Below are positions 4,772 through 36,040 of a stretch of DNA of 64,000 bases, in pieces (within the stretch, counting starts at the first letter, position 1; each line of letters opens with the position of its first letter). Source of the stretch: Isurus oxyrinchus (lineage: Eukaryota). The notes under the pieces were generated by a model. It ran no database searches, was not told where the DNA came from, and saw only the letters and a list, made by a program, of their open reading frames with translations. The stretch lies in NCBI GenBank assembly GCA_026770705.1, contig JANJGN010000150.1, forward strand, positions 62,001 to 126,000, given 5' to 3'. Made by a program: the position numbers and the translations under genes.

Positions 4772-5149
4772 TTGGACTGTCACAAGATTGGAAAGGCAAC
4801 ACTCCACGAGAGGTGACAGCGCAGGAAGGTTCGTGTGTACAGATTCCATGTCATTACAGTTACTCATCACATTTGGTAAAGAAAACACATGTCGGAATCT
4901 GGTATATGAGGAGGTACATACAGAACAAATGGTCTAAATGGTCTATAGCCTTTCACTCCAAGGATCACAGTCACGAGTTACCACGGTTCCACCATCGGAC
5001 CCGGCTGTCTGGAGACCTGAAAGATGGTGACTGTTCCCTGATTATAAACAACATCACACGGGAAGATGCAGGACCTTATTTTTTCAGAATAGAATTTGAC
5101 AATGGTCCGAGCCATAACTATTACCCTGTAACCCAGCTTCACGTTTCTG
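4772..5149 (+). CDS. Gene A exon: Siglec-type V-set Ig domain (VGLSQDW...YFFRIEF...QLHVS)
   Basis: ccccag acceptor and gtaagt donor, phase 1-1. Siglec cysteine pattern EGSCVQIPC / DCSLII. F-strand essential Arg in YFFRIE (cf. CD33 YFFRME). Confidence 0.92.
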
Positions 5150-5876
5150 GTAAGTGCTGTGTTATAATTACTCAACAATTCACATCCAACACTCAATGGG
5201 AAATAACACAAACTGTGACGTTTACATATTAACACAAAACACAGCTTATTATAACACACTGACTGATTCTCAATATCCTGGTGATAGCTTCCAGTTCAGT
5301 CCTAAAGCAACATCTAATACTCACTTTAATATCATTGATTAAATGTATTGACTGTGTCCATCAATGTTATCAGGTTATCCACTCCCATCGATCTCTCTAA
5401 TCCTGTCTCGAAGTCTGACATAGCGACAGAAGAAAGATTCACATTTCTATAGCACCTTTCACCACCTCAGAACGTACCAAATCACTTCACAGCCAATGAG
5501 CTGATTCCTGAATTGTATTTACTGTTGTAATGTGAGAAACACAGCAGCCAATTTGCACAGAGCAATCTCCCACAAATTGCAAAGTAATAAATGGCCCAGA
5601 TCGCTGAGTGAATGATGGGGTAGTGCACTCCGAACTCTGGTCTGCTCCTCCACCCTCACCCACTATTATCAGTTCAAGTGTCTCGGAGTGAACATGTATT
5701 AAGCTGAGAGACAGAAACACCAAAGTCTCAAAGCAGGAAATTCTCTCCTGATCGTTGTAACCTCTCAGATCTGATATCATCCTGTAAAAGTGCTTTTTCT
5801 TGTGGGACTGTGGTTTCTATTTGAACTGATGCTTCACGTTATATTTCTCTAAAAGGATCCATTCTCTGTCTGTTAG

Positions 5877-6173
5877 ATTTCACAGATAAACCCACGATAT
5901 TCCCTGCTGAAATTATTGCAGGAAAGCCTGTGGATGTAAGCTGCACCTTCAACACAACGTGCAATGGAACAGCAGCACCTGTCTTAACCTGGGACTCTCC
6001 CACTGACGTACCTGGATCAGTCTCAAACACTGTAACTCAGCATGGTGTCACTCTGACCTATACTTCTGTTCTGACCCTGATCCCATCACTCAAACACCAC
6101 GGACACACTCTCAGCTGCAGAGTGAGATATCCATCTGTTTCATCGGAGCGGACCCTCGTACTAACTGTGCAAG
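5877..6173 (+). CDS. Gene A exon: first C2-set domain (DFTDKP...CTFNTTC...LSCRV...LTVQ)
   Basis: ttag/gtaagt, 297 nt, phase 1-1. The extra BC-loop Cys is typical of Siglec domain 2. Confidence 0.92.
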
Positions 6174-6349
6174 GTAAGTACCGATACCCTTCATTCTACA
6201 TTCGCTGGAATAGTATAAAATGTGCACAGCAAGCTCCCACACACTGCACTTTGTTTACCAACAGACCATTGGTCTTTAACTGGTAAAAAGTGACCCCTGA
6301 CAGGCAGTACATCCTTACTACTGACTCTCCGACAGTACATCATGGACTC

Positions 6350-7620
6350 ATAGACTCCTAGACAGAAGGAGGCCATTTAGTCCATCATGTCCATGCTGGT
6401 TCATTCTGTCCTTCAGAATTCTTACTAGTAACTTCCCCACCACCGAGGTTAGACTGACTGGCCTGTAATTTCCTGATCTATCCCTTCCTCCTTTTTTTAA
6501 TAATGGGACAACATCAGCCATCCTCCAGTCCTCTGGCACCTCACCTGTGGCCAGAGAGGATTTGAAAATTACTGCCAGGGCCCCTGATATCTCTTCCCTT
6601 TCCTCCCTCAACAGCTTTGGATTCATCTCATCCGGGCTTGTGGATTTATCCACTTTTCAGGCCGCTAAACCCACTAGTACCTCCTCTCTCTGTGTTAATT
6701 ACCTCTCATATTTCACAGTCCTCCACCCTGATGTTATACCTGCATCATCCTTTTCCATTGTGAAGACTGATGCAAAGTATTCATTGAGGACTGTACCCAC
6801 GTCTTCCAGGTCCACACACACATTACCTCGATGGTCCCTAATCAGCCCCACTCTTTCCCGAGTTATTCTCCTGCTCTTTACATATTTAAAAAACCCCTCT
6901 GGGTTTTGCTTTATTCTACTCACCAGTGCTTTCTCATGCACTCTCTTATCTTTCCTAATGTCCTTTTTCAGTTCCCCTCTGCACTATTTATACTCCTCTA
7001 GGGACTCTGCTGTATTGAGCCCTCAGTATCTGCCATAAGCTTCTTTTTTTTCTCAGTCCTAACCTTTATGTTCCTTGTCTTCCAGGGTTCTCCAGACTTG
7101 GTCTCCCTCTTTGTCTTTACAGGAAGATATCTGCTCTGTACTCTCGCTATTCCCTCCTTGAATGCCTCCCACTGCTCTGACACAGTTTTATCTGCAAAGA
7201 GCTTCTCCCAGTCCACTTGGGCCAAATCATATCTCATCTTAGTAAAATTAGCCTTTCCCCAGTTTAGAATTTTTATTCCCAGCACAAACTTATCCTTCTC
7301 CATAACTGTCCTAAATCCAATTGAGTTACAGTCACCATCTCCCCTACTGATACGCTTTCCAACTTCCCCGGCGCTTTTCCATATATTAGGTCCAGAACTG
7401 TCCCCTCCCTTGTTGAGCTTTCTATGCACAGACTAAAAATCTTCTCCTGGATGCAACTTCAGAATTTTTCTCCCTCCCTACCTTGCTCACTAAAGCTGTC
7501 CCAGTTAATATTTGGGTAGTTAAAATCCCTGAGTATTACTGCTTTATTATTCTTACACATCTCTGAAATGTGATCACATGTTGGATTGTCCATCTCTCCC
7601 TGACTGTTTGTTGGTTTTAT
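6350..7620 (-). mobile_element. CR1 LINE ORF2 fragment
   Basis: ORF fragments VPEDWRMADVVPLLKKGGRDRSGNYRPVSLTS and LNWGKANF. Confidence 0.85.
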
Positions 7621-7691
7621 ATCTTGAGTCTATGAGTTCACTGGTTGAGTAAACTCGAATTGCATTCCTTCATATACACTTGTTAGTTGAT

Positions 7692-7895
7692 AAAAACAAA
7701 AAAACTGCGGATGCTGGAAATCCAAAACAAAAACAGAATTACCTGGAAAAACTCAGCAGGTCTGGCAGCATCGGCGGAGAAGAAAAGTGTTGACGGTTCG
7801 AGTCCTCATGACCTCAGTTCTGTCGAAGGGTCATGAGGACTCGAAACATCAACTCTTTTCTTCTCCCCCGATGCTGCCAGACCTGTTGAGTTATT
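7692..7895. mobile_element. Penelope-type short element forming a ~64-bp-arm palindrome
   Basis: aactcagcaggtctggcagcatcgg...gacc pairs with ggtc...ccgatgctgccagacctgttgagtt. Related copies at 16113-16245 and 48815-48950. Confidence 0.6.
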
Positions 7896-8159
7896 CTTAG
7901 CTGATGCTCGCTATCAATAACCAAGAGACACCGACATTAGAACAAGCTGATTATTTATTGTAACAGAGGGCAGAGCACTAAATCCTTGCCTGCTCCCACA
8001 ACCACCTCCAGCTCCAGACTTACAGTTAACCAGTGGCCCACACTGTCCAGTGATTGGTCAGTACTGTCACATGGTTTATCCACTTGTATTCTCTTAAAGG
8101 TACCTGGCACTCCACATTATCACAGGAGGCCTATAGTACACACATAACAGCATGTTTGC

Positions 8160-8475
8160 CTCCTCAGCACTGACCCTTCTACAGTGCAGCACTCCCTCAT
8201 TACTGTCTCTCTAATAGTGTAATGATCCCTCAGTAGTGCTCCTCCAACATTGCACTGGTCAATCAGAACTGACGCTCTGACTGTGCAGTTTTATCTCAGC
8301 AGTAACCCTCCTACAGTGCAGCGCTCCCACAGTACTGTCCCTCCTACAGTGCAGCACTCCCTCAGGACTGACCCTCTGACAGTGCAGCACTCCCTCAGTA
8401 CTGAACCTCTGGCAGTGCAGCACTCCCTCAATACTGACCCTCTGACAGTGCAGCACGCCCTCAATACTGAACTGA
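8160..8475 (+). repeat. 33-bp minisatellite (ctccctcagtactgaccctctgacagtgcagca)n
   Basis: Tandem units; gives spurious HSLSTDPLTVQ ORFs. Confidence 0.9.
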
Positions 8476-8602
8476 AGTGTCTGCCTGGATTACGGGCTAT
8501 GTGGTGAAAGAACCTACATTGACATCACACCTTTCACATTCTCAGTGTCTTTCAAAGTGCTTCACAGTCAGTGTAAGTTAACTGATCTGTATTTGTTTTT
8601 AG

Positions 8603-8884
8603 ACGCACCACGGAATCTCTCAATTACTTATCTTGATATGATTAACGCTTCATCGATCAATATAATTGAGGGGAATTCTGCAGTGATAATCTGCTCTGTC
8701 GAGAGCTTCCCAGCTTCTAACCTGACGTGGCGACATCTTAATGTCCCAATGAACAGAACAAGTTCCAACAATGAGCTGTGGTTGGTGATTCCTCACGTTA
8801 CATCCAGGGATACTGGAGAATATCAGTGTGTGGCAGAGAATGAACATGGAGCAGTGGAGGGGTTCCTAACCATTACTGTGGAAT
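8603..8884 (+). CDS. Gene A exon: second C2/I-type Ig domain (DAPRNLS...CSVESFPASNLTW...YQCVAENEHG)
   Basis: ttttag/gtgagt, 282 nt, phase 1-1; canonical C-W-YxC Ig motif. Confidence 0.92.
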
Positions 8885-10588
8885 GTGAGTTACACAGACT
8901 TTAATATTTCTCTCATCTCCGAACACATATACTCAGATGCTCTCCCACACACACACACACAAGCACTCACAAATGTACAGACCCAAAGTGCATGCACACA
9001 CACAATCCCACACTCATGAGCACACAGAAAGACACACTCACACACAAACACATTAGTACACACTTCCCTGTGAGTTACCTGACCTCCCCAGTACTGCACT
9101 GGAGAGTTCTCCTGGATTCTGGGATATGTGTTCCCATTCATATTTATCGAAGAATATCCAAATTACGAAGTCTATTCCAGAAACTCACATGCACAAAGAT
9201 TCCAACTGATACTCCCCACCTCTCCATGTATCTCTCTCCTCCTTTAAGAAGCTTCCTAATCCCTAACTCTTGCCTGTCCTAACTCCTCCTTATAATGCCC
9301 TGTGTCAAATTTTTTGTGTATCTGAGAGAAAGGGAGAAATAAGGAAGTTTAGGAAGGGATTTCCTGTTAGTGAAGAGCTTACTTCATTTTCTCACCTTTC
9401 CAGTGTTCAGTTTTGCCATCATGTCCAATGACCCTGTTTATAATGGGGGCATCCTATGTAAACGTCACACTGTCTTTACGTCCTCCCACCAGTGGTGGCA
9501 CTGTGGTGCTTAAGCTTGCACCTCCCTGCTTTTCAGCCAACTTCACTTCACAATTTGCTACACATGCTGTAAGTTCATCGAAATTAACTTATATATCAAA
9601 CAGTAGATTTGATAATACAGTTTATAGAAAGGTTCATCCACGCTCTGGGAAGGGTTTACACTCTCCAGGAAGCAGGAATAGGCTGGATGTTGGGGAGTTC
9701 ATCTTTTCCCAGAGAGTAGGGATCCTCGGGAATGTGCTGTCAGTGGGTGTGGTGGTTGCTGTCTCTCTGTTGCCTTCAAGAGGGATCTGGAGTGGTTACT
9801 AACTGGGGGAGAGATCATGGAAGTGGAGAATGATACAGCACAGGAGGAGGCCATTCAGCCCATTGTGCCTGTGCCAGATCTTTCAATGTTCTATCCAATC
9901 AGATCCACTAACCACCACTCCACTTTGCCGCCATCTTCTTCCTTCAAGTGTTTATCCAATTTCCCTTTTGAAAGTTCCTGTTGAATCTGCTTCCACCGCC
10001 CTTTCAGGCAGAACCTTCCAGATCACAACAACTCGCTCTGTCAAAACAAATTCTCCTCATCTCCCCCTCCGGTTCGTCAATCTGTGTCCCTCTGGTTACC
10101 GACCCTCCTGCCCCTTAAATACATCGATACTGTTCACCTCAACCACTCCCAGTGGGAGCGAGTTCCACATTCTCCCCTCTCTCTGGGTAAAGATTGGAAC
10201 TGTTTATTAAGCGGGGGGTGTAAGTCCGTGAGGAAGTCCATCTCGATCCTGTCCGATTCGCACACGCATCCGAGATGGATTTCCACCCTGCACTAAACGT
10301 TTCCAGAATTTTCTACAGCACAGTCCTGTACACAGCGATGGAGAGAAACATTGGACAGGGAGTCCAACAGCACAATGATCCATTCTCACCAATGTTCCAC
10401 GCTAAGGGGAAAGTTCCGATTGTCCACTCTTAGAGTGTTTACAATGAAAACATTCATTCCACATTGAATCCCAGTGGATGGGTCAATATTACAGCAAATG
10501 TTGCAGTGATATGAAGCTTGATTGTTCAGCCAGAGTGAGAGATTGAAAGCGGAGAGTCAGTGATGATTTCTTTCTGTGTGTTCTCTAG

Positions 10589-10728
10589 ACAGTGGAGGAG
10601 AGATTCTGCATGTGATCCTGATCCTGGGAATACGAGCTGTGATATTCCTTGTGGCTGTGGTTATCACTATCGCTGGAGTCTGTGTCTGGGAGAGACAAAC
10701 AGTGAAAGGAAGTCGACAGACTGTTTAA
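10589..10728 (+). CDS. Gene A terminal exon: TM with Arg plus short tail (YSGGEILHVILILGIRAVIFLVAVVITIAGVCVWERQTVKGSRQTV*), activating-type
   Basis: Pyrimidine tract plus ctctag acceptor, in phase 1 with the preceding exon. Hydrophobic helix with CGA (Arg) at 10633-10635. TAA stop and no tyrosine motifs in the tail. Confidence 0.82.
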
Positions 10729-11779: not shown

Positions 11780-12069
11780 ATTCTTATTTTGCTGCCAAAT
11801 TCTTGCCTCAAAGAAAAGCTTCTTGTTGTCACATTTTCTCTATTATATAAATTCCTGTGCCCATCCTTATTATAGAAACTTCCAATGTAAACATGTCACA
11901 TTGTAGTTGCACACTCCTGCCAGTGGTGGTGCCATTCCAAAGCTGTCTTGCTGCACAGACACAGTGAGAAATATTCTCGACGTGTACATGATGTTGTTGT
12001 TACACGGACATCAGGCGGAATCTTGGGCAGTGCCTAGAATGCACTTAGGGCAGTGCAGACCACACTCAG

Positions 12070-13560: not shown

Positions 13561-13779
13561 ATATCAGGGATTGTCAACATGTATCATACGGCCAGAGACC
13601 TGTATTGGGAACTCTATCGCCTGCGCTTCAGCCTCTGAGGTGAGGGGGAGGGGTCTAATCCCACGGAGCCAATGGAGAAGCTTGATGACTACAGCTGCCC
13701 AAATATGAGCTGACAGATCATCACATGGTAAACGTTTTGCTGAGAGCACAAAACATCCTCAATCTTCTCACTGATTACC

Positions 13780-13856
13780 CACTTCCTCATTTTGTCTCAC
13801 AGTGACACATCAGCCCTTTCTAATTAAACACACAGAGGGAGCAGCACAGGAAGAGG
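13780..13856 (+). promoter_or_regulatory. Gene B putative TATA-less promoter with PU.1/Ets sites (acttcctc, caggaag)
   Basis: Both motifs are kept at the paralogous gene D position (42842-42915) although the surrounding upstream sequence diverges. Confidence 0.4.
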
Positions 13857-13920
13857 TCATTCAGCCCAAGCAGAGCGTGTGAGCAGTTTCTCCCCAGGCG
13901 AGCAGTCGGACAGGTCCTGG
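13830..13920 (+). other. Gene B putative non-coding first exon (5' end approximate)
   Basis: Strong donor gtaagt at 13921. Near-identical to 42890-42981 upstream of the gene D leader. Ets motifs nearby. Confidence 0.55.
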
Positions 13921-14370
13921 GTAAGTAACGGAACGATTGGAATTCACTTCCACCACCAACACCGTCCTTTGTTGATGTTGTGACTTTATAAAGACAGATT
14001 CCAATGATTGACGCCTTTGAAAGATTTCTACTGATTATTGAGATCTGGGTGTGAGGCTCAAGTCTGTTGTACAGAACATCTTTCGAGCTCAAGGGATGAG
14101 GGAAGTGCAGAGACATGAGCTTTGGGACATCCTGAGGTGGTGAAAGGTGCTATGGAAATGCAAGTCCTTCATTGTTTTTCCTTCTTAAAGCCTTGTAACT
14201 CTCTGCAGAACACCTATCATCCCACAGAGAATCAAACTATTCTGTGAAGACATTGTCTAAAAGCAGATCTGATCTCTCGAGAGCTGTCGGACAAGAGGTG
14301 AGGTCTCATTAACTCCTTTCTCTTTCAGAACTTCAGAGTTAGAAGCTGAGGAAATATCTGGGAGTGGATA

Positions 14371-14410
14371 ATGATCGGGAAATCTTACTTCCTCCTGTCA
14401 CTTCTCCAAG
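14371..14410 (+). CDS. Gene B leader exon, coding part (MIGKSYFLLSLLQ; exon 14329-14410)
   Basis: ATG at 14371 and phase-1 donor gtaata. Spliced to the V exon it gives the signal peptide MIGKSYFLLSLLQVGLS|QEW. Confidence 0.85.
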
Positions 14411-15272
14411 GTAATATCATCGTCAGCTCAGACAGATTTATGGTGAATAGTCTTTGTAAAAGATCATTCTTATTGAGCTGTGATTGGGAACTGATTCAGC
14501 AGTGAGCCAGTGTACAAACTCACACCAAGTCCCATTCACCCATCACCCCTAAACTATCTGACTCCTGGTCCTACAACATCTCAAACTTAAGATTCACATC
14601 TCTTTGTTCAAATGCATCCATTGCCTCACACTGCCTCCTTATCTCTGTAACCTCCTGCAACTCTCCCAACCAACGTCCCAGATCTCTGTGTTACTCCAAT
14701 TCCGGCCTCTTGACCATCCCCCGATTCCCATCACTCCAATACTGGCGGCCGGGCCTTCAGCTGCCTGGGGCCTGAGCTCTGGAATTCACTCCCTAAACCT
14801 CGGCGATGGAGGAGATCAGAGGGTTTCATTTTACTGAAAACCACCACGACTACATCACAGCTGCAGTGAGAATAGACAGAGAGTCCAGCCCTCGCACTTC
14901 CTGCACAGTTTCACCATAGCAACCATAATAAGGAAGTAAAATAACTGAAAGTTAAACCGAAGACAAACCAGTCAGTTTAGAGAGATGAGATGTTTACACA
15001 GTTTCCCTGTGTGTCTTGTAAACACTGTGTTGGGTGGAAGACTGGCTTCACTAAACAGGGTCCTGAGGACCATGAGCCAATGTAGAATGAAGTTGTCCAC
15101 TCCTGTGTCCAGGATTCTCTTCCATCCATTATGAAACCCCTGGGGAGTTCCATGTGTGTCCTGTAGATGGTCCACACTGCAGCCAATGTGCCCCAGTGAT
15201 GGAGGGGGTGGATATCGAGTCTAGTGGATCTACAAACCATCCAGAGTTAAATATTGATATTTCTCTCCCCAG

Positions 15273-15638
15273 TTGGACTGTCACAAGAGTGGAAAGGTGA
15301 CACTCCACGAGAGGTGACAGCGCAGGAAGGTTCGTGTGTACAGATTCCATGTCATTACAGTTATCCAGCACATTTGGAAAATCAACCACGAGGTGGAGTC
15401 TGGATTAATAATGAGAAACAGATTCCCAGGGCTCCCATAGCCTTTCACTCCAAGGATCACAGTCGCGAGTTACCACGGTTCCGCCATCGGACCCGGCTGT
15501 CTGGAGACCTGAAAGATGGCGACTGTTCCCTGATTATAAACATCAGACGGGAAGATGCAGGACCTTATTTTTTCAGAATAGAATTTGACAATGGTCCGGG
15601 CCATAACTATTACCCTGTAACCCAGCTTCATGTTTCTG
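15273..15638 (+). CDS. Gene B exon: Siglec-type V-set domain
   Basis: ccccag/gtaagt, open frame, essential Arg in YFFRIE. One-codon deletion (IINIRR vs IINNIRR). Confidence 0.88.
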
Positions 15639-16496
15639 GTAAGTGCTGTGTTATAATTACTCAACAATTCACATTCAACACTCAATGGGAATTAACACAA
15701 ACTGTGATGTTTACACATTAACACAAAACACAGCTTATTATAACACACTGTCTGATTCTCAATAACCTGGTGATGGCTTCCAGTTTAGTCCTAAAGCAAC
15801 ATCTAATACTCACTTTAATATCAATGATGAAAAGCATTAACTGTATTATCAGTTTATCCACTCCCATCAATCTCTCCTGTCCTGTTTAAAAGGCTGACGT
15901 ATCGATAAAAGAAAGATGTGCATTTCTGCTGCGCAATTTACCACCTCAGGAGGATCCAAATCCCTTCACAGCCAATGAAATTATTCCTGAATTGTAGTCA
16001 CAGATGTTAAACACAGCAGGCAGTTTGTGCACAGCAAGATCCAACAAACACAATGTAATAAATCACCCAGATCACTGAGGAAATGAGAAGCCAGTGAACT
16101 CAAACCTCTGGTCTGATGAAGAGTCATACGGACTCGAAACGTTAACCCTGTCTTCCTCTCCACTGATACTGTCAGACCTGCTGAGTCTTTCCAGCAATTT
16201 TTGTTTTGGTTTCAGATTTCCAACATCCGCAGTATTCTGCTTTTAACTCCAATCTCTGGTCTGAGCCTCTTCTCTCATCCAGTGTTCTCAATTCACATGT
16301 CTCGGAGTGAACGTGTATTAAGCTGAGAGACAGAAACACTACTGCCAAAGAGCAAGAAAATCTTTCCTGATCATTGTAACCTCTCAGTTCTGATATCATC
16401 CTTGTAAAAGTGCTTTCTCTTGTGGGACTGTGATTTCTATTTGAACTGATGCTTCACGTTATATTTCTCTAAAAGGATCCATTCTCTGTCTGTTAG

Positions 16497-16793
16497 ATTT
16501 CACAGATAAACCCATGATATTCCCTGCTGAAATTATTGCAGGAAAGCGTGTGGTTGTAAGCTGCACCTTCAACACAACGTGCAATGGAACAGCAGCACCT
16601 GTCTTAACCTGGGACACTCCCATTGACGTACCTGGATCAGTCTCAAACACTGTAACTCAGCATGGTGTCACTCTGACCTATACTTCTGTTCTGACCCTGA
16701 TCCCATCACTCAAACACCATGGACACACTCTCAGCTGCAGAGTGAGATACCCATCTGTTTCATCGGAGCGGACCCTCGTACTAACTGTGCAAG
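16497..16793 (+). CDS. Gene B exon: first C2-set domain
   Basis: ttag/gtaatt, 297 nt, near-identical to 5877-6173. Confidence 0.88.
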
Positions 16794-17116
16794 GTAATTA
16801 CATACACCTTTCATTCTACATCAGCACTCCCTCAGCGCAGACCCTCTGACAGTGCAGCCCGTTCTCAGTATCCACATTCTAAGGCCTCTCTAAGTGCTTC
16901 AAAGTCGATAGAAGTTAATTGATCTTTATATGATTATTGCTGAATGAAGAGACAAGCTGTCTAAACTTTACATCTCGCACACACCATTCTCCATGGCAAC
17001 ACCTCCACCTATCAGAGACCACTTGCCAACCAATCAGCACTCTCTTCCCATTAAGTATAAATTGTTGTTCACTTTCTGTTGGTAATCCTGTGAACGGGCT
17101 TCTTGATTCCTGCCAT

Positions 17117-17269
17117 GACATCTGAATGTCCAAATGAACAGAACAAGTTCCAACAATGAGCTGTGGTTGGTGATTCCTCACATTACCTCCAGGGACACTG
17201 GAGACTATCAGTGTGTGGCAGAGAATGAACATGGAGCAGTGGATGGGTTCATAACCATCACTGTGGAAC
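17117..17269 (+). pseudogene. Gene B second C2 exon remnant (3' 153 nt only; acceptor and first ~129 nt replaced)
   Basis: Matches 8732-8884. Upstream 16930-17116 is unrelated sequence, and the B-strand Cys and C-strand Trp are missing. Confidence 0.85.
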
Positions 17270-19709
17270 GTGAGTTACACAGACTTCAACATCTCTCTCA
17301 GATTCGAACACTACACAAACACCATCGAACATACACACCTAAATAGACACGTGCAGACACACATATATGACCACACACAAAGACACACTCACACACAAAC
17401 ACTAACACTCACTCCCTCATGGGTTACCTGACCTCCCTCACTACTGCACTGGAGAGTTAGCCTGAATTCTGGGATTTGTGTTCCCATTCATATTTATGGA
17501 AGAATATGGAAATTACTATTACAGACACTCAGATGCTTAGAGGCTCTCACAGATACTCTCTGCGTCTCCAACTCTCTCTCTCCCTTTAAGAAGCTTCCTG
17601 AAACCTAACCCTTTGACGAATCACCAACCCAACTCCTCCTTATCTGATTCTGTGTGATTTTCTTTGTGTATCTGAGAGTAAGAGAGAGTTGGAGAGGTTT
17701 AGGAAGAGAATTCCTGCTGGTGAAAAGCTTACATAATGTTCTCACTATTTCCGTGCACATAATTCCCAGTATGTCCAAAGCCCCTGTTTATAATGATGAC
17801 TGCCTATGTAAACGTCACGCTGTAGTTACAGCCTCTCACCAGTGGTGGCATTGTAGCCCTTAATCCTTGTGTTTCCCAGCTTTCCCAGCAACTCTACTTC
17901 CCAGTTTGCTACACAAGCTGTGAGTTCTTCGGAATTCAATTATTTCTCAAACGGTAGATTTGATGTCATTTTATTGAAAACTTCCTCAGCGCCTCCCTGA
18001 AGGGTTTACACTCTCTGGGAAGCAGGAATAGGCTGGATGTTGGGGAGTTCATCTTTTCCCAGAGAGTAGTGATCCTCGGGAATGTGCTGTCAGTGGGTGT
18101 GGTGGTTGCTGTTTCTCTGTCACCTTCAAGAGGGATCTGGAGTGGTTACTGACTGGGGGAGAGATCATGGAAGCGGAGAATGATACAGCACAGGAGGAGG
18201 CCATTCAGCCCATTGAGCCTGTGCCAGGTCTTTCAATGTTCTATCCCATCAGATCCACTAACCACCACTACACTTTGCCCCCATCTTCCTCCTTCAAGTG
18301 TTTATCCAATTTCCCTTTTGAAAGTTCTTATTGGATCTGCTTCCACCGCCCTTTCAGGCAGCACCTTCCAGATCACAACAACTCGCTCTGTCAAAACAAA
18401 TTCCCCATCCAGTTCGTCAATCTGTGTCCCTCTGGTTACCGACCCTCATGCCCCTTAAATACATCGATACTGTTCACCTCAACCACTCCCTGTGGGAGCG
18501 AGTTCCACATTCTCCCCTCTCTCTGGGTAAAGATTGGAACTGTTTAGTAAGCGGGGGGTGTAAGTCCGTGGGGGAGTCCATCTCAATCCTGCCCGATTGA
18601 GCCAGTGAGCCAGTGTACAAACTCACACCAAGTCCCATTCACCCATCACCCCTGTGCTTACTGATACACACTGACCTCCTGTCTGACAGCAGAATTGGAG
18701 GAGAGCAGAGATCTCAGAGGTTTTTAGGGTTGGAGGAGGTTACAGTGATAGAGAGTGTAGAGGGGGGATGGTGGGGTAAGAAATCAATGATGAGAATTTG
18801 AAATTTGAGTCATTGCTGGACTGAGAGTTAGTGTAGGTCAGCCAGTGACAGGGCAGCGATCGGCTGAATAGAAAATCAGGGATAAAAACTGGGGGATGAG
18901 GTCTATCCTGATGTGAGGTCTCCGATAGCAATGACCTGAAATTTGTGTCCTTTGCTGCCTTTATTCAAAATCGCCCATGAAGACAACACAGCAGCTCCTA
19001 GAATAGACAGGCTGTTCAGTGTCACACTTCCTGTCCATTCTCACCTTGCTAGATACTTCAATAAGGGAGCAAGATAACTGAAAGAGAGAAGGGAGGCAAA
19101 GCTGTCTGTGTGTAAAACTGTCAAATATTCTGAGTTATCATGATTGTCTCTGACCTGCTGCAGAGTTTAAATTTCACAGAATCTGAGCACTTTGCAGCTC
19201 AGAGAGAGACCATTGACTCACTGCCTGAAAGGGCGGTGGAAGCAGATTCAACAGGAACTTTCAGAAGGGGAACTGGATAAATACTTGAAGGGGACATTTT
19301 GCAGGGCTGTGGAGGAGAGAGCAGAGGTGAGAGTGGGACTAATTGGACAGATCTTTCAAAAGCCCAGCACAGGCTCGATGGGCCAAATGGCTTCCTTTTG
19401 TTCCCGATCATTCTACAATCTGATAAATTAAGACCCACATCAATAACTCTTAAGGCTCCAGCTGCAGGGATGGATCTTTGAGAAGGACAGGGAACAAGAG
19501 GTTTCTGGTATCATTTTCAATTTTATTGACAATTACATAACAGTATAGATTTGTTGAATATTTGAGTGTCTAAAGAGTAGAGGTAATCTGCACTTACGCC
19601 CAGATCTTGTGTTGGTAACCTTGTCTGGAGGTGTCTTTAAATGCTCACAGTGATCTGTGGGATTGTCATTCTTGGATGTTGTCCCTGGTTTCAATTGGCA
19701 TTTTGCCCT

Positions 19710-22520
19710 TGATGCAATTGGGGAGGCTTTAAACTAACATGGCAGGGGATGGGATCCAGAGAGGAGGTTCAGCAGAGGGAGATGCACAGCCAAAATTAGA
19801 AGAGAGAGCAAGTGAACCTGGAAGGCAGAGAAATTATTGGCCAGTTAAGGCACAAGATAGCGTGGCAAAGTTGGATTATATTTACTTTAATGCAAGGAGT
19901 CTGTCGAATAAAGCAGATGAGTTGAGGGCACAAATAACACATGGATGTATGATGTCATTGCTGTCACAGACATGGATTAGAGAGGGGCAGGATTGGCCGC
20001 TCAATATTACAGGATACAGGGTCTTCTGGCAAGACAGGGAAGGAGGTAAAAGAGGAGGGGGTATTGCAAGATTGATCAAGGAATCAGTTATTGCAGTGAG
20101 GAGGGAAGACACCTTAGGGGGCTCCTCAAATGAAGCCATATGGGTAGAACCTAAAAACAAATAAGGAACAATCAGCTTGCTGGGAGTGTTCTACAGGCCC
20201 AATGACACTCAGAGAAATAGAAGTGCAGATACAAAGGCAAAATTCAGAGAAGTATAAAAATAATCGGGTTGTAATGGTGGGGCTTTTCACCTTCCCCAAC
20301 AATAACTGGGTTAGTCATAGTGTGATAGTTTTAGAGGGGGCAGAATTGTTAAAATGCATCCAGGAGAGATTTTTAAGCCAGTACATAGAAAATCCTACAA
20401 GAGAGGGGTCGGTCCTGGAGTAAATTTTAAGGAATGTAACCAGGCAAGTTGTAGACGTATCAGTGGGGGAGCATTGTGCAGATAGTGATCATCATTCCAT
20501 TAGATTCTAGGTTGTTATGGAAAAGAACAAGGATGGGCCAGAAATCTGAGTTCTCAATTGGTGGAAGGCTGATTTTAATAAGATCAAATATGATTTGGCC
20601 AGAGTGGAACTGGGAGCAGCTACCTTTAGGGAAATCTGCGTCAGAGCAATGGGACTCATTCAGGAAGGAAGTGGGGAGAGTACAGGGCCAACATATTCCA
20701 GTAAAGGCAAAGGGTGGGACCAACAAATCCAGGGAATCCTGGATGTCGAGAGATTTACAGGATTGGATAAAGAGAAAAAGGGAGGCTTATGGCAGATACC
20801 AAGGGCTCAAAACAGTGGAAGCCTTAGAAGAGTATAGAATGTGTAGGGGGGACCTTAAAAAGAAAATTAGTAGAGCAAAAAGGGGCCATGAAGAAACATT
20901 AGCAGGAAAAATGAAGGAAAATCCAAAGTTATTTTACAAGTACATTAAGAGTAAGAGGATAACTAGGGAAAGAGTAAGGCCCATTAAGGACCATATTGGT
21001 AGTTTGTGTGTGGAACCGGAAGATGTAGGTAGGGTTCTAAATGAACACTTTGTGTCAGTGTTCACAAGTGAGAGGGGCAATGTGGGTTTGGAAATCAGGC
21101 AGAAGGACTGTGATATAGTTAAAGAAATTAGAATAGAAAGGAACGAGGTTCTAAGTTGTCTGGCAGTCTCAAACGTAGATATATCTGCAGGCCCGGATGA
21201 AATGTATCTCAGGCTGTTGAGTGAGGCAAAGGAGGAGATAGCAGGGGTGCTGGCAATAATTTTCAATACATCTCTGGCCAGAGGAGAGGTACCAGAGGAC
21301 TGGAGGACAGCCAATGTGGTAGCGTTATTCAAGAAGGGAGGAAGGGATAAACCAGGGAACAACAGGTCAGTCAGTCTAACCTCAGTGGTGGGGAAACTAT
21401 TGAAAGCAATTCTGAGGGACAGAATTAATCTACACTTGGAGAGGCAGGGATTAATCAAGGACAGTCAGCATGGTTTTGTTAAAGGGAGGTCATGTCTGAC
21501 CAGTTTGATTGAATTTTTTGAAGAGGTGACCAATTGTGTAGATGAGGGCAATGAATTTGACATAGTCAACTTGGACATCAGCAAGGCTTTTGATAAGGTC
21601 CAGCATGGGAGACTGTAAACGAAAGTAAGAGCACATGGGATCCAAGGGAATTTGGCAAATTGGATCCAGAATTGGCTGAGTGCCAGGAAGTAGAGGGTGA
21701 TGGTCGACGGGTGTTTTTGTGACTGGATGCCTGTGTCCAGTGGGGTTCCACAGGGATCGGTGTTGGGTCCCTTGCTGTTTGTGGTATATATAAACGGTCA
21801 AAACTTGAATGTAGGAAGGTTGATCAGTGACTTCGCGGATGATATGGAAATTGATGGGGTGGTAAATAATGAAGAGGATAGCCTTAGATTACAGGGGGAT
21901 ATAGACGGGCTGGTCAGATGGGCTGATCAGTGCCAAATGGAATTTAACCTGCATAAGTGTGAGGTGATGCACTTGGGCAGGATAAACAAGGCACAGGAAT
22001 AGACAATGAATGGTAGGACCCTGGAAAGTAACAAGGATCAGAGGGACCTTGGTGTGCATGTCCACCGTTCCCTTAAAGTAGTGGGACAGGTGGATAAGGT
22101 GGTTAAGAAGGCATATGGAATACTTGCCTTTATTAGCCGAGAGATAGAATATAAGAGCAGGGAGGTTATGCTGGAACTGTATAGAACACTGGTTAGGCCA
22201 CAGCTAGAATATTGCGTGCAGTTCTGGAACCCACATTATAGGAAGGATGTGATTGCCCTAGAGAGGGTGCAGAGGAGATTTACCAGGATGTTGCATAGAT
22301 TGAATCTGGAACTCACTGCCTGAAAGGGTGGGAGAGGCAGAAACCCTCATAACATTTAAGAAGTATTTGGATGTGCACTTGTGATGCCATCGCATACAAG
22401 GCTTTGGGCCCAGTGCATTAATGGGATTAGAACAATTAGGTACTTGTTTGACCGACGCAGATTCGATGGGCCAAAGGGCCTTTTACTGTGCTGTAGAACC
22501 CTGTGAATCTATGACTCTAT
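19710..22520 (+). mobile_element. CR1 LINE, most of ORF2 (endonuclease + RT), frameshifted
   Basis: YFNARSL, QHGFVKGRSCLT, GVPQGSVLGP, FADD and LEYCVQFW motifs; short tandem tail (ctatgact). Confidence 0.92.
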
Positions 22521-22669
22521 GGGCTGAATTTCCTGCCTGTCGGGGGGGTGGGTCTGAATATTTAAATGAGGCAGGATGATGTCGGGGGTTCCTCCTGATG
22601 TCATCCCGCATCATCATAGTGTCGCTGAGCAGGCCCCACCCCCTGCTCGCCAACGGGAAAATTCAGCCC
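22521..22669. mobile_element. Short MITE with terminal inverted repeats GGGCTGAATTT...AAATTCAGCCC (3' part also at 1-55)
   Basis: Inverted termini; inserted in the CR1 3' tail. Confidence 0.6.
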
Positions 22670-23369
22670 GATGACTCCATGCAACAGGACTGTAAGGTGA
22701 TTGAGGAGCGGGAATGGATCTGATTTCTCCTTGGTTAGGCCTCACCGCTGAGCCTTTGTGTGTAATAACTCCATAGGACCCTGGTCCTGAACAGAAACCT
22801 TGGAGATGAAGTCCCGTCCTTTCACTGAGGATACCCTCCATTGTGTTGTGTGGCACTACCACCATGCTGGATGAGCAGGTTATTGTTGAGTCAATGCCTC
22901 TTAATGTCGATTACACCTTTATCACTTTGCTTATGATGAAGAGTAAATTGATAAGGTAGTGATTGTCCAGGTTGGATTTCTCCTGCTGGATTGGACATAT
23001 CCCTGGGCAGTTTTTCACATTGCAGGTTCAGCAGGCCCTCCCTTTGATGCGCTGTAAAGGACATTGTCCAAGAGCAGGCACAGTGGAGTGCTGAGAGTCA
23101 CAGTCAAAATGTTGTAAGTGATCTCAAAGCCTTGTAAGGACTCTGCCAGCCAACAGCCTGAGATGGACACACATGTGGACAGTACTGACACCTGCCAATG
23201 AGCCCCTCATTTTCTAACCGTGACAGGCTGTCCCCACCATTTCCCACTGCCAAGTTGTTGAAGAATATCCGATCACAAAGATTCCAGTATGATGCCCTGC
23301 CTGTCTTTAGAAATGACTCCCCGGGAGATGCCTTGCTCATCCCAATAAGGTCAAGTTGAATCAGGAGAT

Positions 23370-26300
23370 ACTTCAAAGATGCTTCCTCAGTTTCTGTAGT
23401 GTGGAATCTCACCATTCCCTCTTGCAGCTGCTGGCATTTGTGTTGTGCTAAATGGACTAGATCAATTGACAGACTTGCATTCTCCAGCCGGTGTAATGTT
23501 GGAGCTCCTTTGAAACTGCCAATGTTGTTGAAACTTTCTGCATATTTCAATGTTATGTCATGAACTGAGGTGAAAGGGTAGTACGTGAAAGTGGGACAAA
23601 AATAAATCCATTGGCTTTTGACCAGACCAGACAATCCTGGCAGTGGGTGGGGCCAGAAAATCCAACCCCTATGGGAGATTTTCAGTTTATTTGATGTGCC
23701 CAGAGAGATCAATAAAGACAACAATCCATTATTTATTGGCAAGCCACGTCAGGATATGTGTGAGAGGTGGAATATCGATCACCGCTCCTAGTCTCGTCGT
23801 GTACATCATCGCCATTTCCTGGTTTGTCAGTCACCACATGTCTAAGTTCCTGATGGGATACCGGATGGTCATTCTTATTGCTTGAAGGTTCCCCGTTGTG
23901 TAGGGTCTGTTTGGATCAGCCCACGGCTCTTTGTAGCTGCATCAGCCTTTGCTCTAGTGCCCTGCCGCTGTCAATGGCCCTTTCTGCCAAAAGCCTTGCA
24001 GGATTGGTGGAAAGCTGGGCATTTCCTTGGTGCCTGCAGAAGGCCACACCTTCCACACGTCTCACTAGGTTTGGATGTTCTAGTGAGTGTGTCAACAATT
24101 GCTGTTGTACTGAGGACCTGTAAGCTACGTTGACCTGCGAGGATCACTTCGTAATTATGTCCATCCTTGAGTAGCTCTTCAATGCTATAGGTTTTGGTCT
24201 TATCTAGCAGATCTTTCTGGAAGGCCTCCATGGGAGTGGATGCGATCGCCAACTCAACAACTGTGTCTGCAGGCTCTGTGTTTGAAATCACAGTGCGTAC
24301 CCTTTTCTCTACATCGGCTGATGAAGTGGTCTATGGATTGTGTAGGCTGATGAAATGACATAAACTCTAGTTGATGAATATGGAGTTTAACCTGATTCTG
24401 ACCCTGTCTTCCAATATCGTCCATATCTATTGGGGATCCTTTCGCTCTTCTGCTGTTAATGCTGATGTGTTCAGCCTGTGTAGACCTTCATTCCCAATCG
24501 CGAGGTGAATTTTTATGGCTTCTTCGTCTGGTTCAGTCACACCTGAATCAGGAAACCAGAGCTCTGTACGCTGTTTAAACATTCTGAATTCAGATAGTCG
24601 GTCAGCTCCATCCCAGTTCAAACTGGGGAATTTCGTGGAGATTCTGAAAATATTCCTTTGACCTTCCTTATCCTACAGGATCTGGGATGAGTGTCGCTTT
24701 AGCCCCTTTTGTGTGCTTTTCCGAAGCTCTGCCCACGGAGACGGGTTGTGGCAGGAACACACCACGGAGTAATGGAGTCTTTGTTTTTTATTCAATTTGC
24801 TGTTCAGCAATCTCGAAGCCGCCCGTTATAATCACTAACTTCTCTGGGCTGATTTTTATAATGGTTTTTGTGTGTTTGACTCTCCCTCACTCACTATCGA
24901 TCCAGCCCACACCCTGGTCACTCGCCTTCCCTGACTGAGCTAACCTGCTGCTGGTCCTGGCGATACACACTGTCCCACTCACTGACCTACAGGCCGTGTG
25001 CTGTAATCTCACCACGAGGGATGCGTCTGCTCCCCAGCTCTTTACTTGAGCTCTTTCCCGTCACTGTGTCTTCAAAGGTTTCCTGAGCAGTCAGTACACT
25101 GCGATTTCAACCCTCTCTGATGCTGTGTCTCTGTTGTGGTCTGACCAAAGCGTCGAGGGTCATCTCATGTCATGTAGCTCGATCTAAGGCTGTTCACCAC
25201 GTCATACCTGTACTGAATCTTGCTGCCAGAATGTTTGGCCACTGCTGATCACCATGTTGTGTTTTTATAATGATATAAAGGCACCAGCCACTGATACGGA
25301 ATTGGGTAAATACATTGTGGGTTCAGTTATTTAGAACAGGGACATGAGAACAGATATACAAGGATAGAAAGCTGGGAGACACCTGCAGCCAAACTGTGTG
25401 AGCTGTGTTCTGCTCACAGGCCAAAGTGAAACTTGGACTGGATGGTGTTATCATCCCAGCTGATGTTACTACTGGGCAACTCAGATCCCAGGGTGGAACT
25501 CAGCTTGATAGGTCCTAACTTTTATTTTTTATTTAGGAATGTGGAGTGCAGCTACTGAACAGAGTCACAGGAGTCATCTGATGAACTTCTAACTAAAGAA
25601 TAAAACATTTATTAAACTAGGAAAGACAAACTATATTACATTACTCCTTCACCCAGACCTATACCTTTGCAGATTCATAAGTAGAACACATGTTACAATA
25701 GCTATCTTATACTCTCATGTTCACAATAAGTGCACAGTCGATGTAAACCAATAGACGACCTGTGGTCAGGGACACCACATTCAGAAAGAAACTGACAGAA
25801 CCCACTTGAAACAAATGCTATGTCTCCCTCCTCATCTGTCCCCAGACGTTTGTTACACTGTGGGACCACCAGTCTCACTGAACTGAGATATCCATATGAG
25901 GGTTTCCAATCTCCACTCTCCAAGAACTCGCTTTGGAATCTTCTCCAACATGACACTTTCACTCAGACACCTTCCACAAGGGTCCACTTTCACTATTTCA
26001 AACTCTCCTTCCCATGTTCCTGCCCCCTGGATCGCCACGTGCATTCAGCCTTCCTTCCACGCCCTGTCTCTCCAATGCTCAGCCATGTCAATGGAACACC
26101 ATGGCTTCACATGGCCGTAGTAATGAGTCACCAACCTGTGGTGTCTCCTAGGATCGTCTGGCTTCTCGCAAGCCTATTTTGCATTAGGCCTGTGTCCTGC
26201 TGCTTTCTCCCTTTATGCTTGAAGCCCTCTTCTGCTCCTCACTCTTAACTTCACTTAACAGGGCCTTTTCCAGATTTGACTAGAAGGTTTTCTTGGGCAC

Positions 26301-26759
26301 TTTCTCCTGTTCCACTCGATGGTTTTCGCTTCATCTTTACTTTGGGACTGACTATCTGTCCCGCTCCTTTGCTGCTTCTCCTGGCAACTCCTTTCAACAG
26401 AACTGAAAGTACTTTTCTGTTTTTCTCGGTCTCTGTGTGTCCCTCCCTCTGGATCACTGTTACTAGGCAACAGCACAGTTTATTCTACCTTGTGTTTGTT
26501 TTGACTTCCCTTCAAGAGTCATAAAAACTCATTAGATAGGTGGCTTCTTCCAAAGTGAAACCAAAACTCAAGTTCCCCCTTTTCAAAACACCCAAATACA
26601 GAAAGACAAACTAAACTTGAATTGAAAGATATACCTTATGCCTAATGCACACAAATAGACAGAGAGCTTCCTTAAGCCAACCCTAGTTCCGAAAAATCAC
26701 ATGACACACTTCCCCTCGAGTGATGTCATGCTGCTGTCCCTGAAAGGCATATTACAACA
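23370..26759 (-). mobile_element. Second copy of the same degenerate Gypsy element (part of a segmental duplication)
   Basis: Colinear and closely similar to 760-4146. Confidence 0.7.
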
Positions 26760-27385
26760 GTGTTATCACTTGGCAGGTGATGTGTGCCAGGCAGACCAAG
26801 TCCATGAGAGAAATGTGGTCACACGATCATAATGATTCTTGATTTTTTTATTTATTATGAGATGTGTGCACTGAATTCAGAAGCAATAAGTCCACCAAGA
26901 TCTTTAGAGATTTAAAAAAATAAATTAAAATATTTATCATCAAAATAAAAGATTTTAAGCACAGACGTAAGACTACAATGACTGCTATAATAACTCCTAA
27001 AATTCCTAATTAACCTGACTCCCAGTTACACTCCCTTTAAGGCAACAGACCAAAAATAGATGTTAGATTTGAAACAAACTCAGCAAGTTAACACAATGCC
27101 CTGGACAATGGAATTCCAAATGGATTTTCCCCAACTTCAGTTCTGTTGGATAGCAGGCTTGTGCACAAACAGGGTCCTGAGGACCATGAGCCAATGTAGA
27201 ATGAACTTGTCCACTCCTGTTTCCAGGATTCACTTCCATCTATTGTGATACCTTGGGGAGTTCATTGTGTGTCCTGTAGCTGGTCCACACTGCAGCCACT
27301 GTGCCCCAGTGAAGGAGGGGGTGGATATCGAGTCTAGTGGATTGACAAAACACACAGAGTAAAATATTGATATTTCTCTCCCCAG

Positions 27386-27772
27386 TTGGACTGTCCCAAG
27401 AGTGGAAAGGCAACACTCCACGAGAGGTGACAGCGCAGGAAGGTTCGTGTGTACAGATTCCATGTAATTACAGTTATCCAGCACGTTTAGTAGGGAAAGC
27501 ACGTGTCGGAATCTGGTATGTGATATGGTACACATGGAATACATGGAATACAAGGTCTAGCGGGATCATAGCATTTCACTCCAAGGATCACAATCGCGAG
27601 TTAACACGGTTACACCATCGGACCCGGCTGTCTGGAGACCTGAAAGATGGCGAATGTTCCCTGATTATAAACAACATCAGACGGGAAGATGCAGGATATT
27701 ATTATTTCAGAATAGAATTTGACGGCAACAATAGTTACAGCTACTATCCTGAAACCCAGCTTCATGTTTCTG
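27386..27772 (+). CDS. Gene C exon: first V-set domain (long Trp-rich C-C' loop)
   Basis: ccccag/gtaagt, 387 nt, essential Arg in YYFRIE, Siglec Cys pattern. Confidence 0.9.
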
Positions 27773-31413: not shown

Positions 31414-31779
31414 CTGAACCCTCACAAGAGTGGAAAGGTGACACTCCACAAGAGGTGACAGTGCAGGAAGGTTCGTGTGTACAGATTCCGTGTCATTACA
31501 GTTATCCATTGTGTCTGGAAAACCAACCGCGAGGTGGAGTCTGGTTTAATAATGAGGAACGGGAAACATCGTCTATAGCCTTTCACTCCAAGGATCACAG
31601 TCACGAGTTACCACGGTTCCACCATCGGACCCGACTGTCTGGAGACCTGAAAGATGGCGACTGTTCTCTGATTATAAACAACATCACACGGGAAGATGCA
31701 GGACCTTATTATTTCAGAATAGAATTTGACAGCAGAAATAGATACAACTATTATCCTGTAACCCAGCTTCACGTTTCTG
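31414..31779 (+). CDS. Gene C exon: second (internal) V-set domain, AEPSQEW start
   Basis: ccccag/gtaagt, 366 nt, YYFRIE; extra Cys in YPLCLEN. Confidence 0.9.
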
Positions 31780-32150: not shown

Positions 32151-32441
32151 ATTTCACAGATAAACCCACGATATTCCCTGCTGAAATTATTGCAGGAAAG
32201 CGTGTGGATGTAAGCTGCACCTTCAACACAACGTGCAATGGAACAGCAGCACCTGTCTTAACCTGGGACACTCCCACTGACGTACCTGGATCAGTCTCAA
32301 ACACTGTAACTCAGCATGGTGTCACTCTGACCTATACTTCTGTTCTGACCCTGATCCCATCACTCAAACACCACGGACACACTCTGAGAGTGAGATATCC
32401 ATCTGTTTCATCGGAGCGGACCCTCGTACTAACTGTGCAAG
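32151..32441 (+). CDS. Gene C exon: C2-set domain with in-frame 6-nt deletion removing the F-strand Cys (HTLRVRY vs HTLSCRVRY)
   Basis: ttag/gtaagt; 291 nt versus 297 nt in the paralogues. Confidence 0.85.
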
Positions 32442-34754: not shown

Positions 34755-34851
34755 GTAGAGACTCCAGTAAATGGACAGTAGGATTGTACACGGCTGGGAT
34801 CATGTTGAGTGTTTTCCTGGCTGGAATCTTCATCTTCATCTGTGTGAGAAA
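34755..34851 (+). CDS. Gene C TM exon (RDSSKWTVGLYTAGIMLSVFLAGIFIFICVRK), uncharged TM
   Basis: ttttacag/gtaagt, phase 1-2; near-identical paralogue at 56842-56938. Confidence 0.88.
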
Positions 34852-35958: not shown

Positions 35959-36040
35959 GAGAAAGACAGCGACGCAGGAGAGAGTTTCAGGGACCAGTGA
36001 CATTGCATTGACCCCCAGTCCACTCTCTGTGAAGCACCAG
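35959..36040 (+). CDS. Gene C cytoplasmic exon 1 (RKTATQERVSGTSDIALTPSPLSVKHQ)
   Basis: ttgcag/gtacag, phase 2-0; paralogue at 57611-57692. Confidence 0.82.

What the first reader, a model, noticed from the sequence alone, without database searches (positions are those of the whole stretch)
18560..18640. Microhomology deletion fusing activating-type gene B to inhibitory gene C (SIGLEC14/5-like fusion)
Seen: 17270-18598 matches gene A's last intron (8885-10258) up to CCGATT. It then switches to sequence matching the start of the post-leader intron (43536 onward, ggaaCCGATTcagcagtgagccagtg). This removes B's Arg-TM exon and 3' end, and C's promoter and leader. All remaining Ig exons are phase 1, so B leader-V-C2 can splice in frame to C V-V-C2-TM-tail (about 724 aa if the gaps hide no exons). 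Established: the human SIGLEC14-null allele is a deletion that places inhibitory SIGLEC5 under the activating gene's promoter. Inference: a convergent, possibly polymorphic, activating-to-inhibitory fusion.
Basis: partly seen in the sequence, partly recalled or inferred. Interest (0 to 1): 0.8.

Follow-up and report, generated by a model that had tools for sequence, protein, structure and literature searches.

The report
Amplified gene-fusion junction in shark Siglecs
Two neighbouring shark immune-receptor genes are joined here at one junction that recurs in 14 gene copies, some with activating-type and some with inhibitory-type tails, so it likely lengthened the receptor rather than switched an activator off.

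Summary
The junction at 18593-18598 is real, and the spliced model is open (724 aa: leader-V-C2-V-V-C2-TM-tail). It is not a SIGLEC14/5-like null allele. The same junction occurs 14 times on 8 contigs of this shark genome, from one origin. Six copies end in the Arg-bearing TM exon and eight in the uncharged TM plus tyrosine tail. Gene 'A' of this window has no leader and sits behind the same junction, 4 kb upstream of the window. The join is non-homologous (last intron to first intron), about 4.6 kb judged from two unfused look-alike arrangements, and adds Ig domains. Human SIGLEC14/5 instead encodes plain Siglec-5. The window copy got its present 3' half by a separate homologous crossover at 22.1-22.9 kb. 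The microhomology is not clean: every copy carries an 8-nt duplication at the join. The tail's proximal ITIM is degenerate (LLYANP). Splicing across the junction and polymorphism were not shown, and selection tests were null. The surrounding Siglec-like cluster is very large (625 leader-exon sites); I found no description of it in the searched literature.

The parts
13800..14410 (+). Gene B 5' end: likely 5'UTR exons and leader exon (ATG 14371, MIGKSYFLLSLLQ, donor at 14410)
   Evidence: leader-to-V splice joint seen in four probable RNA runs for the family
15273..15638 (+). V-set exon 1, Siglec-like, Arg in YFFRI
16497..16793 (+). C2-set exon; predicted donor for splicing across the junction
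17117..17268 (+). 5'-truncated remnant of a second C2 exon; no upstream AG gives an open frame, so likely skipped
17277..18598 (+). Long-type last intron of the Arg-TM gene class, cut about 330 nt before the TM exon
18593..18614 (+). Fusion junction: CCGATT followed by the 8-nt tandem duplication GAGCCAGT GAGCCAGT; shared by 14 gene copies
18599..27385 (+). First (post-leader) intron of the downstream partner, 8.8 kb, with LINE-like remnants and no leader homologue
   Evidence: the LINE label is my recognition of the ORF fragments, not a database call
22081..22909 (+). Homologous crossover zone: subgroup-1 haplotype upstream, subgroup-2 haplotype (mostly tyrosine-tail genes) downstream
27386..27772 (+). 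V-set exon 2 (first exon after the junction)
31414..31779 (+). V-set exon 3
32151..32441 (+). C2-set exon with a 6-nt in-frame deletion that removes the second Cys
34755..34851 (+). Uncharged TM exon
35959..36040 (+). First cytoplasmic exon
37817..38065 (+). Last exon: degenerate LLYANP and distal TEYAQI tyrosine motifs, stop
4772..10728 (+). 'Gene A' (V-C2-C2-Arg TM): leaderless 3' half of another junction-bearing gene whose leader and junction lie upstream of the window (G000:C150:45228 and 57979)

Best explanation
One old non-homologous join, likely a deletion of about 4.6 kb between two head-to-tail Siglec-like genes, links the last intron of a short Arg-TM gene to the first intron of another gene, and is predicted to give a longer receptor with V-set domains both before and after a C2 domain. 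Shown: the junction, its 14 copies, their exon order and tails, and the haplotype switch in the window. Inferred: the fused unit was then copied by segmental duplication, and homologous crossovers in the shared introns swapped 5' and 3' halves, giving 6 Arg-TM and 8 tyrosine-tail versions; the window copy took its tail half at 22.1-22.9 kb. Inferred and untested: the 10.6-kb composite intron is spliced C2 to V, the protein binds sialylated glycans with up to three V domains, and the tail type sets the sign of the signal. The 8-nt duplication at the join suggests end-joining with a templated insertion or later slippage (mechanism from my own knowledge).
For: 14 exact junction matches on 8 contigs, 0 in the reversed-pattern control. 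All 14 share two derived changes absent from the unfused partners: CTCAAT and the 8-nt duplication. Right-flank tree of 42 rows: fused copies need 1 change, in 89% of bootstrap trees, against a shuffled mean of 11.9; 13 of 14 form a 96/90 clade. Tails 6 Arg-TM and 8 uncharged. Two unfused arrangements show the pre-deletion order, with 4.66 and 4.56 kb between the two break sites (G000:C71:611-635 kb, C1130:144-166 kb). In unfused leader-V..C2-remnant-ArgTM genes with a first intron over 3.9 kb, the last intron is the short type in 7 of 7, whereas every junction has the long type, so two gene classes were joined. Window haplotype switch over 220 diagnostic sites. 11 of 14 fused models are open. 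Family members are spliced leader-V and V-C2 in probable RNA runs.
Against: No C2-to-V splice was listed (11 joints and 734 loose ends were not shown). No purifying-selection signal: pN/pS 0.67-1.09 in fused exon classes, none significant, low power. The open fraction, 11 of 14 vs 21 of 35 unfused, is not significant (p=0.32). The composite intron holds 6 AATAAA sites, so early termination is possible. The left-flank tree needs 2 changes (1 change in only 24% of bootstraps), and the full 14-copy clade has SH-aLRT 46. The two unfused look-alikes lack CCGATT at the right break site and are not the direct donors: they fall outside the fused clade near the join but are within about 1% of subgroup 1 further in. 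The founding tail type is therefore unresolved.
Confidence: 0.7

Rival explanations
1. The founding event fused an activating gene to a tyrosine-tail gene; Arg-TM versions arose later by crossover into activating genes.
For: Subgroup 2 plus the basal copy C121:889917 has 6 of 7 tyrosine tails. Subgroup 1 is within about 1% of unfused activating genes beyond 1.4 kb from the join, as a later crossover into them would give. 7 of the next 10 nearest unfused right-hand relatives have the uncharged TM.
Against: Subgroup 1 has 5 of 7 Arg-TM tails; both unfused carriers of the full-length intron that I found end in Arg-TM; the window's own tail half came in by a later crossover. Even if true, the event is old and amplified, and the product is not the plain inhibitory receptor.
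Confidence: 0.3
2. The junction is tolerated debris: the upstream half ends in the intron as a tail-less or secreted V-C2 product, the downstream half is a promoterless relic, and the 14 copies hitch-hiked on segmental duplications.
For: pN/pS near 1; 3 of 14 copies broken; AATAAA sites in the intron; the window copy lost a structural Cys; other headless or oddly joined genes occur in the cluster.
Against: Only 2 of 40 downstream Ig exons are disrupted, both in one copy, against 17 of 102 in unfused genes, although tail swaps and conversion could refresh them; all splice phases are compatible.
Confidence: 0.25
3. The junction came from a tandem duplication, within one gene or by unequal exchange with the donor gene lying upstream, and not from a deletion.
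For: A duplication gives the same last-intron-to-first-intron join; some fused genes show the block V..C2-remnant twice.
Against: The left intron is the long type, while genes with the long first intron carry the short type (7 of 7); the deletion geometry exists twice unfused.
Confidence: 0.12
4. Misassembly of a repetitive cluster.
For: The cluster is split over many contigs; some loci are about 99% alike over 27-29 kb and may be haplotype duplicates.
Against: 14 copies with tree-structured flank divergence up to 5% and shared derived changes found in neither parent.
Confidence: 0.02

Closest known systems
Human SIGLEC14/5 fusion (SIGLEC14-null allele; PMC4042635, passages read)
   Same: Neighbouring activating-type and tyrosine-tail Siglec-like genes; the 3' half ends up under the upstream gene's promoter; the upstream Arg-TM exon is lost at that locus.
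   Different: SIGLEC14/5 arises between highly similar 5' regions, encodes a product identical to Siglec-5, and is a segregating null. Here the join is non-homologous and offset, adds V and C2 domains, is present in 14 copies with both tail types, and at least 172 sites typical of the Arg-TM class remain. The closer analogue is the homologous crossover at 22.1-22.9 kb.
KIR hybrid/fusion genes (PMC7516082, passages read; PMC2816608, abstract and section list)
   Same: Dense head-to-tail paired-receptor cluster; recombination in introns shuffles binding and signalling halves; frequent birth of fusion genes and tail exchange.
   Different: Different receptor family; KIR breakpoints map in homologous transposon copies, whereas this founding join is non-homologous and increases domain number; the cluster here is far larger.
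CD33-related Siglecs, including two-V SIGLEC12 (two-V architecture recalled, not from a call)
   Same: V-set with the essential Arg, C2 domains, Arg-TM or tyrosine tails; best solved-structure hits are Siglec-5, sialoadhesin, MAG and CD33.
   Different: Tandem V domains are common in the shark homologues (32 of 108 proteins), but V after C2 appeared in only 2 of 108, both unverified database models. Orthology to mammalian CD33-related Siglecs was not tested.

Membership tests
SIGLEC14/5-type null fusion | Crossover within homologous 5' regions, product identical in coding sequence to the inhibitory receptor | tested here: not met
   The join links a last intron to a first intron and adds V-C2; definition from PMC4042635.
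SIGLEC14/5-type null fusion | The junction converts an activating gene to an inhibitory one | tested here: inconclusive
   True of this copy's end state, but 6 of 14 junction genes end in Arg-TM and the founding tail is unresolved.
SIGLEC14/5-type null fusion | Segregating presence/absence polymorphism | tested here: inconclusive
   One assembly only; short-read contigs of four DNA runs listed no bridging piece. Fourteen diverged copies argue against a recent allele, but single copies may vary.
SIGLEC14/5-type null fusion | Removes the activating receptor from the genome | tested here: not met
   172 sites of the intron motif that precedes the Arg-TM exon.
Siglec | N-terminal V-set domain with the essential F-strand Arg | tested here: met
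   Pfam V-set and Ig_CD22; Y[YF]FRI in all three V domains, aligned to Siglec-5 YFFRVE.
Siglec | Siglec cysteine pattern (two Cys in the V B-strand region, extra Cys in the first C2) | tested here: met
   CVQIPC, DCSL/ECSL and CTFNTTC seen in the translations and matched to Siglec-5; the pattern itself is recalled. The window's second C2 lacks one Cys.
Siglec | Binds sialic acid | not testable with these tools
   Needs a glycan-binding assay.
CD33-related Siglec (orthology) | Groups with mammalian CD33-related Siglecs in a tree and is syntenic with them | not tested
   Database names of shark homologues are automatic and mixed: CD33-like, Siglec-12/13, MAG-like, CD22-like.
Inhibitory Siglec | Membrane-proximal consensus ITIM plus distal ITIM-like motif (consensus recalled) | tested here: not met
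   All 8 fused tyrosine-tail genes have LLYANP proximally and TEYAQI distally; gene D in the window has LLYANI. Inhibitory signalling is plausible but weaker than assumed.
Activating Siglec | Basic residue in the TM segment and short tail without tyrosine motif | tested here: met
   ILILGIRAVIF and a short tail in the 6 Arg-TM fused genes; adaptor binding was not testable.
Microhomology-mediated deletion | Junction equals the shared microhomology followed by unchanged partner sequence | tested here: not met
   Expected CCGATTCAGCAGT; all 14 read CCGATTGAGCCAGT. It can still be end-joining with an insertion.

The most novel reading that the evidence does not exclude
One chance deletion founded an expressed subfamily of multivalent Siglec-like receptors (V-C2-V-V-C2) that was amplified to 14 copies and repeatedly re-paired into activating and inhibitory forms, inside a shark cluster of several hundred Siglec-like genes, far more than the fifteen of humans.
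Probability: 0.35. Interest if true: 0.7.

Novelty: new variant of a known kind. Interest (0 to 1): 0.45.

Why it matters
It shows, with both the before and after states in one genome, how a paired immune-receptor cluster can gain a new domain architecture from one non-homologous join and then redistribute signalling tails by homologous crossover. It also points to a very large Siglec-like cluster in a shark (625 leader-exon sites, 226 uncharged-TM exons, 172 Arg-TM-class sites; pseudogenes and possible haplotype duplicates included). A 2020 paper on teleosts states that fish genomes lack inhibitory CD33-related Siglecs (PMC7226832, passages read). The junction alone is an ordinary kind of event for such clusters; the cluster is the larger lead.

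Tried and rejected
DNA contigs of four public runs laid on 18200-19000: no piece bridging the junction was listed and the tables were cut, so no evidence either way; one loose end showed the unfused left partner. No listed holder is on record as RNA. Four probable RNA runs laid on 14300-17400 only: leader-V and V-C2 joints seen, no C2-to-V joint listed, tables cut; the joints cannot be assigned to this paralogue. Search for a hidden leader or promoter in 18599-27385: nothing by homology; 8 ATG..GT mini-frames, none resembling the family leader. Selection counts: null. The contrast of intact 5' halves (9 of 11 fused vs 2 of 11 unfused, p=0.009) was rejected as evidence because several broken genes share one frameshift. 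The sawshark model P0016 with V after C2 starts with a diverged MAG-like half and may be an annotation merge, so I do not count it as support. Hidden exons under the window's N stretches: not read; none of the 6 other fused copies with C2 followed by the uncharged TM has an extra Ig exon there. Earlier scan notes: none. Literature searches for shark Siglec expansion and for Siglec exon shuffling found no description of this cluster or junction; subscription journals are mostly not covered, and PMC516556 was not held. No supplements were read. No fold or complex prediction was run.

Full report
Observation. Exon mapping finds no TM exon after B's C2 exon and no leader before the V exon at 27386. 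A sensitive search with both leader regions of the window finds nothing in 18599-27385. The nine exons have AG/GT ends, compatible phases and one open frame of 724 aa. The exon remnant at 17117-17268 has no usable acceptor.

What the genes are. The V exons match Pfam V-set and Ig_CD22. Their best solved relatives are Siglec-5, sialoadhesin, MAG and CD33. The nearest named homologues are shark proteins, with white shark and basking shark at 72-74% identity. The window lies at G000:C150:62001-126000 in a 4.98-Gb genome. Pattern counts give 625 leader-exon ends, 226 uncharged-TM exon starts and 172 sites of the intron motif before the Arg-TM exon. These counts include pseudogenes and perhaps haplotype duplicates: some loci are about 99% alike over 27-29 kb.

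The junction is old and amplified. It occurs 14 times on 8 contigs, with none in the control pattern. I fetched the surroundings of all 14. Six end in the Arg-TM exon and eight in the uncharged TM with a tyrosine tail. One of the six is the window's own gene A, whose leader and junction lie upstream of the window. All 14 share two changes that the unfused partners lack: CTCAAT for CTCGAT, and CCGATT-GAGCCAGT-GAGCCAGT where a clean join would read CCGATTCAGCAGT. On a tree of the right flank (42 rows: the 14 plus 28 unfused introns from the 1.24 Mb I held) the fused label needs one change, in 89% of bootstrap trees; 13 of 14 form a 96/90 clade, but the full clade has SH-aLRT 46. The left-flank tree (31 rows) needs two changes and does not exclude one. 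I read this as one origin followed by duplication. Misassembly does not explain diverged flanks with shared derived changes.

How it formed. Two unfused loci show a short Arg-TM gene directly upstream of a gene with the same 8.8-kb first intron, with 4.66 and 4.56 kb between the two break sites. That spacer holds the Arg-TM exon, the intergenic stretch, the promoter and the leader. The junction's left intron is the long type; unfused Arg-TM genes of this build with a first intron over 3.9 kb carry the short type in 7 of 7 cases. So two gene classes were joined, and deletion is more likely than duplication within one gene. These two loci are relatives of the donor, not the donor: they lack CCGATT at the right break, and they fall outside the fused clade near the join while lying within about 1% of subgroup 1 further in. 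The 8-nt duplication fits end-joining with a templated insertion, or later slippage; this step rests on my own knowledge.

How the tails were dealt out. The fused copies split into subgroup 1 (5 Arg-TM, 2 tyrosine-tail) and subgroup 2 with one basal copy (1 Arg-TM, 6 tyrosine-tail), 3-5% apart in the first 1.4 kb. Over 220 sites that separate the subgroups, the window copy follows subgroup 1 up to 22080 (3 exceptions), is mixed to 22909, and follows subgroup 2 after that (2 exceptions; the sites were defined from 5 subgroup-1 and 7 subgroup-2 copies, leaving out the window and C52:2743227). Its tail half therefore arrived by homologous crossover about 4 kb downstream of the junction. The tail of the founding fusion cannot be fixed: both unfused carriers of the full intron end in Arg-TM, 7 of the next 10 relatives end in the uncharged TM, and tails swap often.

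Is it functional? Not shown. Eleven of 14 fused models are open, against 21 of 35 complete unfused genes (p=0.32). Downstream Ig exons are disrupted in 2 of 40 cases, both in one copy, against 17 of 102 in unfused genes, but swaps and conversion can refresh them. Variant counts show no excess of synonymous changes. Probable RNA runs show leader-V and V-C2 splicing for the family but listed no C2-to-V joint, with tables cut. The window copy lacks one Cys in its last C2 domain.

Comparison. Human SIGLEC14/5 forms between similar 5' regions, encodes plain Siglec-5 under the SIGLEC14 promoter, and segregates as a null (PMC4042635, passages). This junction fails two of those features and leaves two open. 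It works more like the hybrid genes and tail exchanges of KIR clusters (PMC7516082, passages; PMC2816608, abstract and outline), with the difference that the founding join adds domains. Tandem V domains are common among the homologues (32 of 108), V after C2 is rare (2 of 108, unverified models). Searches (listings only, plus passages of PMC8455134 and PMC7226832) found no account of this cluster or junction; most subscription journals are not covered and I read no supplements.

Verdict. Real feature, new variant of a known kind. Interest 0.45, held up mainly by the before-and-after record in one genome and by the size of the cluster.

Noticed in passing
G000 contigs C52, C71, C121, C150, C189, C323, C385, C546, C557, C646, C724, C838, C926, C1130, C1184, C1343: Very large Siglec-like paired-receptor cluster: 625 leader-exon sites, 226 uncharged-TM exons, 172 Arg-TM-class sites; no description found in the searched literature.
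   Followed up: partly
window 42827-59016 (gene D): Intact leader-V-V-C2a gene with six tandem copies of the second C2 exon and a consensus-type LLYANI motif plus TEYTQI.
   Followed up: partly
G000:C150:891394-903621: Another leaderless V-V-C2-ArgTM half, placed directly behind the last exon region of a tyrosine-tail gene by a different join near 893176.
   Followed up: no
G000:C52:2713507-2702120 (-): Gene with V-C2-V-C2 order without this junction; its second V and C2 are broken.
   Followed up: no
G000:C52:2755946-2761643; C385:3097-8499; C1130:175273-178962: Tyrosine-tail genes with the two cytoplasmic exons duplicated in tandem, which could allow alternative tails.
   Followed up: no
G000:C150:141843 and 25444; C838:65648: A third TM exon type (RDSNEWKAGLLG...), uncharged, about 75% like the main one, with no matching tail exons found by my templates.
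   Followed up: no
window 8159-8470, 12036-13561, 37048-37693, 50240-50504, 57906-58478: 33-bp minisatellite arrays in introns and between the genes, in both orientations; possible recombination aids.
   Followed up: no
G000:C1130:153150-180000 vs C385:3768-30588: 99.3% identical over 26.9 kb starting at the break site, one unfused and one fused, but only 96.4% identical upstream; could be recent paralogues or recombinant haplotypes.
   Followed up: partly
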